Origin: a virus
Taxonomy: Duplodnaviria > Heunggongvirae > Uroviricota > Caudoviricetes
Virus record (IMG/VR): IMGVR_UViG_2778261532_000008
Reading direction: 5' to 3' (one strand)
Length of the DNA stretch: 44,392 bases
Below the pieces are notes generated by a model, which saw only the letters and a program-made list of their open reading frames with translations, was not told the DNA's origin and made no database searches. The position numbers and the translations under genes are program-made. Shown here one piece after another: positions 15,956 through 17,020 of the stretch; within the stretch, counting starts at the first letter, position 1, and every line of letters begins with the position of its first letter.

Positions 15956-16477
15956 ATGATTCTTATGTCTAAAAAGTATACTTTATGCGCTCTTGTTGTA
16001 TCTGCAATTCTTCTTTCTGGGTGTCAATCTAGCGGTGCTGATTATGCTGCCGATGTTTATGATACCGCTCAATTGAATTCGAAGCAGGAAACAAAGACAG
16101 TCAATATTATCTCTGTGCTTCCAGCTAAAGTGAAAGTTGATAATAAAGCTAATAAAGAAGCGGCACAGACATTTGGTGCGGTACTGGGAGCTGTTGCTGG
16201 GGGCGTTGCCGGTTATAATGTTAAAGGCACATCGACACTGGGTGCTGTAGCTGGCGGTACTGGTGGTGCGGCTCTTGGTGCAGCGGCTGGTTCTTTGGTT
16301 AGTGATAAAACAATTGTTGAAGGTGTTTCACTGACTTATAAAGAAGGAACTAAGGTGTTCACTTCAACTCAAGTTGGTAAAGCATGCCAGTTTACAACGG
16401 GGCTTGCTGTGCTTATTTCAACTAAAGATAATGAAACTCGAATTCAGCCAAATGCTACTTGTCCAGAAAAGAAATAA
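15956..16477 (+). CDS. secreted lipoprotein with glycine-zipper segment (SlyB/Pcp-like)
   Basis: Signal peptide with lipobox LSGC; Gly/Ala-rich GxxxG zipper region GAVLGAVAGGVAGY...GAVAGGTGGAALGAAAG; AT-rich promoter region upstream. Confidence 0.65.
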   Translation: MILMSKKYTLCALVVSAILLSGCQSSGADYAADVYDTAQLNSKQETKTVNIISVLPAKVKVDNKANKEAAQTFGAVLGAVAGGVAGYNVKGTSTLGAVAGGTGGAALGAAAGSLVSDKTIVEGVSLTYKEGTKVFTSTQVGKACQFTTGLAVLISTKDNETRIQPNATCPEKK

Positions 16478-16480
16478 TTT

Positions 16481-17020
16481 ATGAATAAAATTATTTTATT
16501 TCTAATCTTTTCTACGTTTAGTGTAGGCACTGCCTTGGCTAACTCGTTGCAAAGTCAAATTGCTGCTATTGCTCAAGCGGAAAATGAAGGGCGAGCTAAA
16601 GAGCAGCAAGCTGAGGATGCCAGAAAAGAACTTATTCGCCAACAAGCACAAGCTGAACGTATTAGAAGAGAAAAAGCAGCATCTGCCGCTGCTGCACGCG
16701 AAAAACAGCGTGTTGCTGCAGAAAATGAACGTAGAGCGAAACGAGAAGCCGAGCTAGCAAATGACAAGAAGCGAGATCAAGCTTATGAGGATGAGCTTCG
16801 CAAGCTGCAACTCGAAAGCATGAAACTCGAACTGCAAGCAAAAGCGGCTCGTGTCCAGCGAGAAAACGATTTTATAGAGCAGGAGTTGAAGGAGAGAGCA
16901 GCTAAGACAGATGTAATTCAGTCTGAGGCTGATGCAAATAGAAATATTTCTACAGGAAGTAAAGATTTACTGCAAAGCGAAGGAAAAGCTAGAGAGAAGA
17001 AAGCTAGCAGTTGGTGGTAG
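16481..17020 (+). CDS. secreted coiled-coil protein, charged Ala/Glu/Arg/Lys-rich
   Basis: Cleavable-looking signal peptide MNKIILFLIFSTFSVGTALA; long E/R/K/A-rich helix; 3 nt after the lipoprotein stop. Confidence 0.6.
   Translation: MNKIILFLIFSTFSVGTALANSLQSQIAAIAQAENEGRAKEQQAEDARKELIRQQAQAERIRREKAASAAAAREKQRVAAENERRAKREAELANDKKRDQAYEDELRKLQLESMKLELQAKAARVQRENDFIEQELKERAAKTDVIQSEADANRNISTGSKDLLQSEGKAREKKASSWW

What the first reader, a model, noticed from the sequence alone, without database searches (positions are those of the whole stretch)
15956..17020. Secreted lipoprotein (glycine zipper) plus secreted charged coiled-coil protein at the sim position: possible superinfection-exclusion pair
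Between the immI module and the tail operon, where P1 carries its sim superimmunity genes, this element has two adjacent plus-strand genes separated by 3 nt. One encodes a lipobox lipoprotein with a SlyB/Pcp-like Gly/Ala zipper. The other encodes a signal-peptide protein with a long E/R/K/A-rich helix reminiscent of TolA domain II. A long AT-rich promoter region (15600-15955) precedes them. Envelope-localised phage proteins here are plausible entry-exclusion factors, but the architecture differs from what I recall of SimC.
Basis: partly seen in the sequence, partly recalled or inferred. Interest (0 to 1): 0.55.

Follow-up and report, generated by a model that had tools for sequence, protein, structure and literature searches.

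The report
Phage-borne copy of host yfgH–yfgI operon
The two genes are real, but they are the already-annotated phage P7 genes upf50.5 and upf50.0, a mobile copy of the E. coli yfgH–yfgI outer-membrane-stabilising operon that sits where phage P1 carries its sim genes; a role in blocking other phages is possible but untested.

Summary
Window 15956-16477 encodes a 173-aa lipoprotein with a lipobox (LSGC) and a glycine zipper. Window 16481-17020, 3 nt downstream, encodes a 179-aa signal-peptide protein predicted to be one long charged helix.

The window is a P7-type P1-family phage-plasmid, and the genes are P7 upf50.5 and upf50.0. A 1376-bp cassette (15673-17048) replaces P1 simABC exactly. It runs from just beyond the C1 operator Op51 to just before the late promoter LPsit.

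The pair is a paralogue of the core E. coli operon yfgH–yfgI (67% and 47% aa identity). YfgH is a SlyB-like outer-membrane lipoprotein that stabilises the membrane under stress. YfgI is DUF5384.

The same pair recurs as accessory cargo in other temperate elements: diverged alleles at the same P1-like locus, Salmonella phage-plasmids, and E. coli prophages next to tail-fibre genes. It is under strong purifying selection (dN/dS about 0.06).

Best reading: a lysogen-expressed envelope-hardening module (lysogenic conversion). Superinfection exclusion is a live but unsupported rival. There is no homology to Sim, TraT membership fails, and no exclusion family was hit.

Interest is modest. The genes and the variability of the locus are known; the recurrent capture by phages appears undescribed.

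The parts
15390..15475 (-). C4 antisense RNA gene of the immI module (context, left flank)
   Evidence: Rfam RF01695, 68.4 bits against a gathering score of 45. P7 annotates c4 at the equivalent position.
15544..15597 (-). a1/b1 target sites of C4 RNA (context)
   Evidence: Rfam RF03163, 47.1 bits.
15658..15674 (-). C1 repressor operator Op51/Op(c4). This is the last P1-homologous element before the cassette.
   Evidence: Matches ATTGCTCTAATAAATTT with 2 mismatches. There are 3 such sites in the window against 0.26 expected. P7 annotates it as Op(c4). P1 homology ends at 15672.
15673..17048 (.). 1376-bp cassette that replaces P1 simA-simB-simC
   Evidence: blastn of the window against P1: 13001-15672 at 95.8% identity and 17049-19535 at 97.7%, with nothing in between. 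The P1 counterpart is 1513 bp and carries simABC. GC3 of the two ORFs is 24% and 31%, against 47-52% in flanking phage genes.
15675..15955 (+). AT-rich (31% GC) upstream region, presumed to hold the cassette's own promoter. No C1 operator lies inside it.
   Evidence: Composition. There is one weak sigma-70-like match at 15689-15717, which is not above the shuffle expectation. No further C1 operator was found. No sequence is conserved with the upstream regions of other alleles.
15956..16477 (+). YfgH-like outer-membrane lipoprotein (P7 upf50.5). Signal peptide and lipobox are residues 1-23 (Cys23 codon at 16022-16024). The glycine-zipper helical hairpin is about residues 64-113 (16145-16294). 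C144 and C169 are invariant.
   Evidence: 100% identical to P7 Upf50.5. 67% identical to K-12 YfgH. Full-length SlyB profile match with E=2.8e-9. Family alignment. AlphaFold2 topology is strand, helical hairpin, strands, at low confidence.
16481..17020 (+). YfgI-like DUF5384 protein (P7 upf50.0). Signal peptide is residues 1-20 (16481-16540). The mature protein is a helix of about 159 residues: a variable ER/K/A-rich N-terminal half and a conserved C-terminal half ending in SWW.
   Evidence: Pfam PF17358, E=3e-43, 147.8 bits against a cut-off of 25. 47% identical to K-12 YfgI. AlphaFold2 gives a single helix with pLDDT 87.6. Composition and heptad analysis. Conservation pattern.
17050..17070 (+). 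Late promoter LPsit of the tail operon. It is the first P1-homologous element after the cassette, so the pair lies upstream of, and outside, the late operon.
   Evidence: P7 annotation transferred by coordinates. P1 homology resumes at 17049.
17060..17094 (+). 13-bp-stem hairpin between ORF2 and tubA/pmgC, in the P1 backbone. It has no U-tract.
   Evidence: RNA fold of 17015-17105 gives -29.6 kcal/mol, z=-4.9.
17101..17667 (+). tubA/pmgC, first gene of the late tail operon (context, right flank)
   Evidence: P7 and P1 annotation.

Best explanation
The locus is phage P7's upf50.5-upf50.0 operon, a horizontally acquired paralogue of the enterobacterial yfgH-yfgI operon carried as accessory cargo at the variable sim locus of a P1-family phage-plasmid.

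Shown. ORF1 is a Lol-sorted lipoprotein of the YfgH/SlyB family. It has a periplasmic beta domain split by a glycine-zipper helical hairpin that inserts into the outer membrane. ORF2 is a Sec-exported DUF5384 (YfgI) protein that is essentially one helix about 24 nm long. The two genes stay adjacent wherever the family occurs.

Inferred. The pair is transcribed from its own AT-rich promoter in the lysogen. It lies upstream of the late promoter LPsit and has no C1 operator of its own. The lipoprotein oligomerises into SlyB-like rings that corral lipids and outer-membrane proteins. The long-helix partner acts with it from the periplasmic side through its conserved C-terminal half. The lysogen thereby gains an extra, differently regulated dose of an outer-membrane stabiliser, giving tolerance of detergents/bile, chelators and envelope-biogenesis stress. 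That makes it a lysogenic-conversion module. Any effect on incoming phages, colicins or complement would be a by-product or secondary use of the hardened envelope.
For: Identity. The region is 99.3-100% identical in nucleotides to P7 and to 166 P1-like plasmids, and ORF1 is 100% identical to Upf50.5.

Homology. ORF1 is 67% identical to K-12 YfgH and ORF2 is 47% identical to YfgI, in the same gene order. DUF5384 scores well above the Pfam cut-off. The family profile matches SlyB 7OJF over its full length.

Function of the host homologues. YfgH deletion sensitises cells to SDS+EDTA and causes loss of outer-membrane proteins. Even leaky extra YfgH rescues LptD/BamA depletion, and SlyB-like rings are predicted (bioRxiv 10.64898/2025.12.22.696046). 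There is an aggravating interaction with lptD (PMC3219608). A yfgI mutant is hypersensitive to nalidixic acid (PMC3536626). yfgHI behaves as one regulated operon in S. Typhi (PMC11619404).

Selection. Between the P7-type and E. albertii-type alleles, synonymous sites are saturated (pS 0.63 and 0.77) while amino acids are 88% and 81% identical. dN/dS is about 0.06 for ORF1.

Recurrent carriage as a pair. It is found at the same locus in other P1-like plasmids as the 88% and 84% alleles. It is also found in Salmonella phage-plasmids of about 100 kb, at the ends of prophages with a P2-like tail module in E. coli and Salmonella, and on a Vibrio plasmid.

Placement. It lies outside the late operon, and no C1 operator lies within the cassette.
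Against: There are no expression data. The promoter scan is not above chance, and AT-rich DNA may be H-NS-silenced.

The host already has yfgHI, so the benefit of a second copy is assumed, not shown.

The ring model for YfgH is itself only an AlphaFold prediction in a preprint. My monomer model of ORF1 was of low confidence (pLDDT 53.6).

Nothing is known about what YfgI does or whether it contacts YfgH.

The exact positional replacement of sim, and the adjacency to tail-fibre genes in other prophages, fit an exclusion role equally well.
Confidence: 0.55

Rival explanations
1. Superinfection exclusion is the selected function. The outer-membrane ring lipoprotein and its periplasm-spanning helix partner block adsorption, tail-tip penetration or DNA transit of incoming P1-like or other LPS/OMP-dependent phages. 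On this reading the pair functionally substitutes for SimABC.
For: The cassette is an exact swap for simABC between Op51 and LPsit.

In PLSDB the locus looks nearly two-state. About 298 plasmids carry sim-type sequence, against 166 with the P7-type cassette and about 20 with the 84% allele, among roughly 500 P1-like backbones.

SimA and SimB, like this pair, begin with signal peptides.

In prophages with a P2-like tail module, the pair lies directly beside tail-fibre genes at the prophage end. From my own knowledge, receptor-blocking lipoproteins such as Cor and Llp are typically found in that position.

The most variable part of the mature lipoprotein is the turn of the membrane hairpin, which would face the cell surface.

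There is a precedent in TraT, a ring-forming outer-membrane lipoprotein that plasmids co-opted from chromosomes for exclusion (PMC11733297).
Against: There is no sequence similarity to SimC.

No PHROG family annotated as exclusion matched, and there was no PADLOC hit. PADLOC also lacks SimA, SimB and SimC, so that negative is weak.

Nearly every E. coli already expresses the 67%-identical YfgH and remains sensitive to P1 (this second point is general knowledge).

Purifying selection is strong, with little sign of an arms race.

Mutual exclusivity with sim was inferred from counts only and was not tested record by record.
Confidence: 0.22
2. The pair serves the phage's own lytic cycle. For example, it could keep the outer membrane intact until spanin action, control lysis timing or lysis-from-without, or assist tail or injection-machinery function.
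For: The pair is co-oriented with, and immediately upstream of, the late tail/sit operon, with no intrinsic terminator in between. One GenBank record labels the genes as tail proteins (phi456).
Against: The pair lies upstream of the late promoter LPsit, not downstream. P1 itself lacks the pair and is fully viable. There is no homology to virion proteins, and the 'tail' and 'DNA methyltransferase' labels are unsupported by any domain evidence. The same pair is a core chromosomal operon and also occurs on non-phage plasmids.
Confidence: 0.08
3. The pair is a surface-exclusion or serum-resistance factor of the TraT type, acting against conjugation or complement rather than phage.
For: There is a sub-threshold Pfam TraT match (E=7e-5, 23.1 bits) covering residues 59-145. 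37 of 39 family members match TraT at E<=0.01. TraT is likewise a lipoprotein with two transmembrane helices that forms an outer-membrane ring (PMC11733297 and PMC12658005).
Against: The score is below the Pfam gathering threshold of 31 bits. The family profile finds no TraT chain in the PDB even at E<=10, while it does find SlyB. TraT has an LptE-like core and about 240 residues, whereas this protein has 151 mature residues with a SlyB-like layout. The match is probably driven by the glycine-rich hairpin.
Confidence: 0.05

Closest known systems
E. coli YfgH–YfgI (chromosomal operon between yfgG and guaA; S. Typhi srgI–srgL)
   Same: Same two families in the same order and orientation, with similar lengths (173/179 aa here, 172/179 aa in K-12). 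Identity is 67% and 47%. The lipobox, glycine zipper, two conserved cysteines, signal peptide and conserved C-terminal half of the helix protein are all shared.
   Different: This copy is carried on a phage-plasmid at the sim locus. It has much lower GC3 (24% and 31% against 43% and 49%). Its upstream region is unrelated, so its regulation is presumably different. The gap between the genes is 3 nt rather than 15 nt. It is not derived recently from E. coli yfgHI, because synonymous sites are saturated and it falls in a separate clade in a neighbour-joining tree.
SlyB (PhoPQ-induced outer-membrane lipoprotein; PDB 7OJF/7OJG)
   Same: Full-length profile homology with E=2.8e-9. The layout is the same: lipid anchor, beta strand, glycine-zipper helical hairpin, beta domain. 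The proposed mode of action is ring-shaped oligomers that enclose lipid and OMP nanodomains.
   Different: It is only distantly related. SlyB has no YfgI-like partner gene. The genetic suppressors of yfgH and slyB mutants differ (clsA against the Mla pathway; abstract). Ring formation was not tested here.
P1 SimA/SimB/SimC superimmunity genes
   Same: They occupy exactly the same site, between the C1 operator of c4 and LPsit. Orientation is the same. They also encode exported proteins, are AT-rich, and lie outside the late operon. The region is recognised as one of eight variable regions of P1-like phage-plasmids (PMC9603915).
   Different: There is no detectable sequence similarity. Sim has three genes rather than two. 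No exclusion phenotype is known for the P7-type pair.
TraT (IncF surface exclusion / serum resistance lipoprotein)
   Same: It is an outer-membrane lipoprotein with a two-helix membrane hairpin that forms rings, and it has chromosomal ancestors that were co-opted by mobile elements. There is a weak Pfam match.
   Different: The match is below the family threshold. The core fold differs (LptE-like) and so does the size. There is no profile hit to TraT chains in the PDB.
Prophage lysogenic-conversion envelope lipoproteins (lambda Bor, phi80/N15 Cor, T5 Llp). This comparison is from my own knowledge and was not tested by sequence.
   Same: They are small exported lipoproteins carried as accessory cargo by temperate phages or near tail genes, and they change envelope properties of the lysogen.
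   Different: These are unrelated families of single genes. This case is a two-gene module with a core-genome paralogue.

Membership tests
YfgH / SlyB-like glycine-zipper outer-membrane lipoproteins | Signal peptide with a lipobox and invariant Cys, and no Asp at +2 (outer-membrane sorting) | tested here: met
   The sequence reads ...ILLSGC|QSS. C23 is invariant in 40 homologues and residue +2 is Q.
YfgH / SlyB-like glycine-zipper outer-membrane lipoproteins | Full-length sequence homology to YfgH and to SlyB, including the GxxxG/A zipper hairpin | tested here: met
   67% identity to K-12 YfgH over 171 aa, E=6e-73. The profile matches SlyB 7OJF at E=2.8e-9 over positions 9-162. The Pfam glycine zipper 2TM domain matches 32 of 39 members.
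YfgH / SlyB-like glycine-zipper outer-membrane lipoproteins | Oligomeric ring in the outer membrane; stabilisation of the outer membrane under stress | not testable with these tools
   The monomer AlphaFold2 model had low confidence (pLDDT 53.6). No multimer prediction or experiment was available.
DUF5384 / YfgI | Pfam PF17358 match above the gathering score | tested here: met
   147.8 bits against a cut-off of 25, E=3e-43. 47% identity to K-12 YfgI.
DUF5384 / YfgI | Cleavable signal peptide, a single long helix, and a gene immediately downstream of a yfgH-like gene | tested here: met
   The signal peptide ends in ALA|N. AlphaFold2 gives a helix over residues 3-178 with pLDDT 87.6. The genes were adjacent in every context examined: K-12, L004, L006, L008, L009 (where yfgI is truncated), L010, L011-L014 and L016.
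P1 Sim superimmunity system | Sequence homology to SimA, SimB or SimC | tested here: not met
   BLASTP against SimC gives only chance-level segments (E>=0.04 in a single comparison). The nucleotide alignment shows no homology across the cassette.
P1 Sim superimmunity system | Blocks infection by P1-type phages after adsorption when expressed | not testable with these tools
   This requires plating and injection assays.
TraT surface-exclusion lipoproteins | Pfam PF05818 match at or above the gathering score, and a TraT-like size and core | tested here: not met
   23.1 bits against a cut-off of 31. No TraT chain was found by the family profile in the PDB. The TraT core is LptE-like.
Known anti-phage defence or superinfection-exclusion families (PADLOC, PHROGs) | Match to a catalogued defence or exclusion protein model | tested here: not met
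   PADLOC gave no hit at E<=1. PHROG hits are phrog_1277 and phrog_1094, which carry no exclusion annotation. PADLOC also lacks SimA, SimB and SimC, so absence is weak evidence.
TolA domain II-like periplasmic spanning helices | Homology to TolA | tested here: not met
   No TolA family appears in Pfam or NCBIfam at E<=0.1. The resemblance is compositional only: an ER/K/A-rich segment with almost no hydrophobic residues at positions 31-95.

The most novel reading that the evidence does not exclude
Several unrelated temperate phage lineages have repeatedly captured the YfgH–YfgI outer-membrane nanodomain module and use it as an envelope-level barrier to superinfection. These lineages are P1-like phage-plasmids, Salmonella phage-plasmids of about 100 kb, and prophages with a P2-like tail module. 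In about a third of P1-like phage-plasmids the module would be the functional replacement of Sim. The lipoprotein ring would act in the outer membrane, and a 24-nm single-helix partner would act as a periplasmic strut or ruler.
Probability: 0.2. Interest if true: 0.6.

Novelty: new member of a known kind. Interest (0 to 1): 0.33.

Why it matters
P1/P7-type phage-plasmids are common in E. coli and Salmonella. The cassette occurs in 182 of 5426 complete E. coli genomes, and these elements often carry resistance genes. If the cassette hardens the outer membrane, it is a fitness or tolerance trait that spreads with them. It would also provide a natural gain-of-dose experiment for the newly characterised YfgH and a handle on the unknown function of YfgI/DUF5384. 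If instead it excludes phages, it would be a new exclusion mechanism built from a housekeeping envelope module, and that would explain why it alternates with sim. Either result is testable with simple cloning and plating.

Tried and rejected
- Single-sequence PDB searches for both proteins found nothing significant. Only the family profile found SlyB.
- The AlphaFold2 monomer of ORF1 was of low confidence, so no fold search was run on it. The ORF2 model is a single helix, for which fold search is uninformative, so that was not run either.
- The TraT lead from Pfam was followed and rejected as a membership claim.
- The TolA domain II resemblance is compositional only.
- PADLOC was negative for the pair. 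It was also negative for SimA, SimB and SimC, so the negative carries little weight.
- A search for a conserved promoter or regulatory motif in the upstream regions of eight alleles found no similarity at all. The sigma-70 scan was not above the shuffle expectation.
- The database labels 'DNA methyltransferase' (RefSeq, phrog_1277) and 'minor tail protein / tail tip protein' (phi456) were rejected, because no domain evidence supports them.
- The phage TL-2011b hit (66.9% identity) probably reflects a host-type yfgH copy near the record end. It was not counted as phage carriage.
- Literature searches for upf50.5, upf50.0 and DUF5384, and for glycine zipper + lipoprotein + superinfection exclusion, found nothing relevant.
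- One literature query failed on a term-length rule.
- The P1 genome paper (PMC523184) is not held in the library.
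Full report
**What is there.** The window carries two plus-strand ORFs exactly as described: 15956-16477 (173 aa) and 16481-17020 (179 aa), separated by 3 nt. ORF1 starts with a signal peptide ending in the lipobox LSGC. Cys23 is invariant across 40 homologues, and residue +2 is Gln, which implies outer-membrane sorting. It also contains a Gly/Ala zipper at residues 74-112. ORF2 has a signal peptide with an ALA|N cleavage site. Its mature part of 159 residues is extremely charged: 41% E/D/R/K and 19% Ala, with GRAVY -1.27. 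AlphaFold2, run with a 43-sequence alignment, predicts a single uninterrupted helix over residues 3-178 at mean pLDDT 87.6. At 1.5 Å per residue that is about 24 nm. Residues 31-95 are almost free of hydrophobic residues, which resembles an ER/K-type single alpha-helix or TolA-II-like spacer, and this part varies in length among homologues. Residues from about 98 to 179 are conserved, have a moderate heptad pattern, and end in SWW/SWF.

**Where it is.** The window is a P7-type member of the P1 family. The region is 99.3% identical to phage P7 and 99-100% identical to many E. coli and Salmonella phage-plasmids. GenBank record AF503408 already annotates the two genes as upf50.5 ('outer membrane lipoprotein of unknown function') and upf50.0 ('membrane protein of unknown function'), each with a signal peptide.

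Alignment with P1 shows 95.8% identity up to window 15672 and 97.7% identity from 17049 onward. Between those points there is no homology. The 1376-bp segment 15673-17048 stands exactly where P1 has a 1513-bp segment with simA, simB and simC. The left border is just past the start of the C1 operator Op51 (15658-15674). That operator belongs to the divergent c4-icd-ant (immI) operon, and Rfam finds C4 RNA and its a1b1 targets at 15390-15475 and 15544-15597. The right border is just before the late promoter LPsit (about 17050-17070), which drives tubA/pmgC and the tail genes.

The pair therefore lies outside the late operon, and no C1 operator lies within the cassette. The 281 bp upstream (15675-15955) has 31% GC. 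GC3 of the two genes is 24% and 31%, against 47-52% in the neighbouring phage genes, which indicates foreign origin.

**What it is.** DNA search of 5426 complete E. coli genomes finds a 69%-identical chromosomal locus in 5420 of them, namely yfgH-yfgI. In K-12 the operon lies between yfgG and guaA. ORF1 is 67% identical to YfgH (E=6e-73) and ORF2 is 47% identical to YfgI (E=9e-46). ORF2 matches Pfam DUF5384 at 147.8 bits against a cut-off of 25. A profile of the YfgH family matches SlyB (PDB 7OJF/7OJG) over its full length with E=2.8e-9. The low-confidence AlphaFold2 model has the matching order of strand, helical hairpin and strands.

DUF5384 is a small stand-alone family. Only 312 clusters at 50% identity, out of 1.84 billion representatives, match at E<=0.001, and most are 150-230 aa.

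**What is known about the host homologues.**
- yfgH shows aggravating interactions with lptD, and its loss impairs outer-membrane integrity (PMC3219608).
- A 2025 preprint shows that a yfgH deletion is sensitive to SDS+EDTA, leaks NPN and loses outer-membrane proteins under stress.
- The same preprint shows that even leaky extra YfgH rescues LptD/BamA depletion and that yfgH is induced by outer-membrane stress.
- It also shows that clsA mutations suppress the defect, and that AlphaFold3 predicts SlyB-like rings (bioRxiv 10.64898/2025.12.22.696046).
- A yfgI mutant is hypersensitive to nalidixic acid (PMC3536626). I infer that this could equally reflect envelope permeability rather than DNA repair.
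- In S. Typhi the orthologues srgIL form an SdiA/AHL-regulated operon (PMC11619404).
- I found no paper that mentions upf50.5, upf50.0 or DUF5384.

**The pair is mobile and recurrently captured.**
- Diverged alleles occupy the same Op51–LPsit interval in other P1-like plasmids. An E. albertii element has an 88%/81% allele together with four extra genes. An IncY E. coli plasmid has an 84% allele together with a DUF559 protein.
- Between the P7-type and E. albertii alleles, synonymous sites are saturated (pS 0.63 and 0.77) although the flanks are P1-like. This means the locus was filled independently more than once.
- dN/dS for ORF1 is about 0.06, so the proteins are functional and constrained.
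- The pair also occurs on Salmonella phage-plasmids of about 100 kb with a Rep3 replicon.
- It occurs in a Salmonella prophage between an ORF6N gene and a DUF4376 tail-fibre gene.
- It occurs at the very end of E. coli prophages with a P2-like tail module, next to the tail-fibre genes, at two chromosomal sites.
- It occurs on a Vibrio plasmid.
- It occurs, with yfgI truncated, on 7.5-kb ColRNAI plasmids next to a CptA-like phosphoethanolamine transferase.
- In a neighbour-joining tree without support values, the mobile copies fall into several lineages separate from core E. coli YfgH.

In PLSDB, roughly 500 plasmids have the adjacent tubA/tubB backbone. Of these, 298 carry sim-type sequence (137 of them full length), 166 carry the P7-type cassette in full, and about 20 carry the 84% allele. 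The sim region is already listed as one of eight variable, low-GC regions of P1-like phage-plasmids (PMC9603915).

**How it most likely works.** The following points are shown:
- The family assignments.
- The export signals.
- The operon structure.
- The position outside the late operon.
- Purifying selection.
- Repeated carriage by temperate elements.

The rest is inferred. I propose that the pair is expressed in the lysogen from its own promoter. The lipoprotein would insert its glycine-zipper hairpin into the outer membrane and oligomerise into SlyB/YfgH-type rings that hold lipids and outer-membrane proteins together under stress. The long-helix protein would cooperate from the periplasm via its conserved C-terminal half. 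The net effect would be a lysogen with an extra, differently regulated dose of an envelope stabiliser. I put this at about 0.55.

**The exclusion hypothesis.** The swap with sim is exact. Both cargos encode exported proteins, since SimA and SimB also begin with signal peptides. The tail-fibre adjacency in other prophages is the classical position of receptor-blocking lipoproteins, which I state from my own knowledge.

Nothing sequence-based supports it, however. There is no similarity to SimC. No PHROG or PADLOC exclusion or defence family matches, although PADLOC lacks SimA, SimB and SimC too. The pattern of evolution is conservative.

**Other rivals.** The Pfam TraT match (23.1 bits against a cut-off of 31; 37 of 39 members match weakly) is most simply explained by the shared glycine-rich membrane hairpin. 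The family profile finds SlyB but no TraT chain in the PDB, and TraT has a different, LptE-like core. A role in the lytic cycle or in the virion is unlikely. P1 lacks the pair, the pair lies upstream of LPsit, and the labels 'tail protein' and 'DNA methyltransferase' found in some records have no domain support.

**Novelty and verdict.** The genes, their signal peptides, their resemblance to E. coli K-12 proteins and the variability of the sim region are all on record. Three things appear not to have been described. The first is the explicit identification as a yfgH–yfgI paralogue in the light of the new YfgH work. The second is the precise cassette boundaries. The third is the finding that unrelated temperate phages repeatedly carry the same pair. 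This is a new member of a known kind, of modest interest (0.33). If the pair proved to be a Sim-replacing exclusion device built from a housekeeping envelope module, the interest would be clearly higher.

Noticed in passing
window 15956-16477 and its copies in RefSeq NC_050152, NC_031129, NC_042128, and GenBank OR339795: The YfgH-like lipoprotein gene is labelled 'DNA methyltransferase' in RefSeq phage records and in phrog_1277. In phage phi456 the pair is labelled 'minor tail protein / tail tip protein'. No domain evidence supports either label, so these look like propagated misannotations.
   Followed up: partly
L004 3600-8450 (E. albertii P1-like contig) and L016 4889-6148 (E. coli pLR-25_1): The Op51–LPsit interval of other P1-like plasmids holds extra cargo beside a yfgHI-like pair. 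One has a 107-aa membrane protein, a 118-aa ORF, a 137-aa YfjT-like protein and a 394-aa protein with a C-terminal SH3 domain. Another has a 419-aa DUF559 protein. The four L004 cargo proteins gave no NCBIfam or PADLOC hits; the DUF559 protein was seen only in the record's annotation and was not searched. The locus behaves as an accretion hot spot.
   Followed up: partly
L009 (E. coli plasmid pYLMB10c, 7.5 kb ColRNAI) 1947-4892: Small mobilisable plasmids carry a truncated CptA-like (non-MCR) phosphoethanolamine transferase directly upstream of a yfgH-like gene and a truncated yfgI-like gene. Two LPS/outer-membrane-related functions therefore travel together.
   Followed up: partly
window 17060-17094: A 13-bp-stem hairpin (CUCGUAGAAUCUG...CAGAUUCUACGAG) lies between ORF2 and tubA/pmgC in the P1-homologous backbone and overlaps the annotated -10 of LPsit. 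Fold z-score is -4.9, and there is no U-tract. Its role, whether in Lpa-dependent promoter architecture or as a transcript-processing or insulation element, was not examined.
   Followed up: no
window 13993-14009 and 41284-41300: There are two further near-consensus C1 operator sites, each with one mismatch to ATTGCTCTAATAAATTT, besides Op51 at 15658-15674. Three sites are found against 0.26 expected by chance. The first corresponds to the annotated kilA/repL operator. The second was not identified.
   Followed up: no
L002 4145-4642 (P1 simA, simB): SimA (MRKLLLPLLFMAGTVNA|A) and SimB (MLIRLFLVLSFLTFNVFA|D) both begin with typical signal peptides by eye. All known cargo variants at this locus therefore encode exported or membrane proteins.
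   Followed up: no
phage record JQ011317 / NC_019445 (Escherichia phage TL-2011b) 41921-42436: A yfgH-like gene with 66.9% identity to the query, about the same as the 67% of core E. coli yfgH, lies about 2.3 kb from the end of this 44.8-kb prophage record. It may be host flanking DNA included in the phage record.
   Followed up: no
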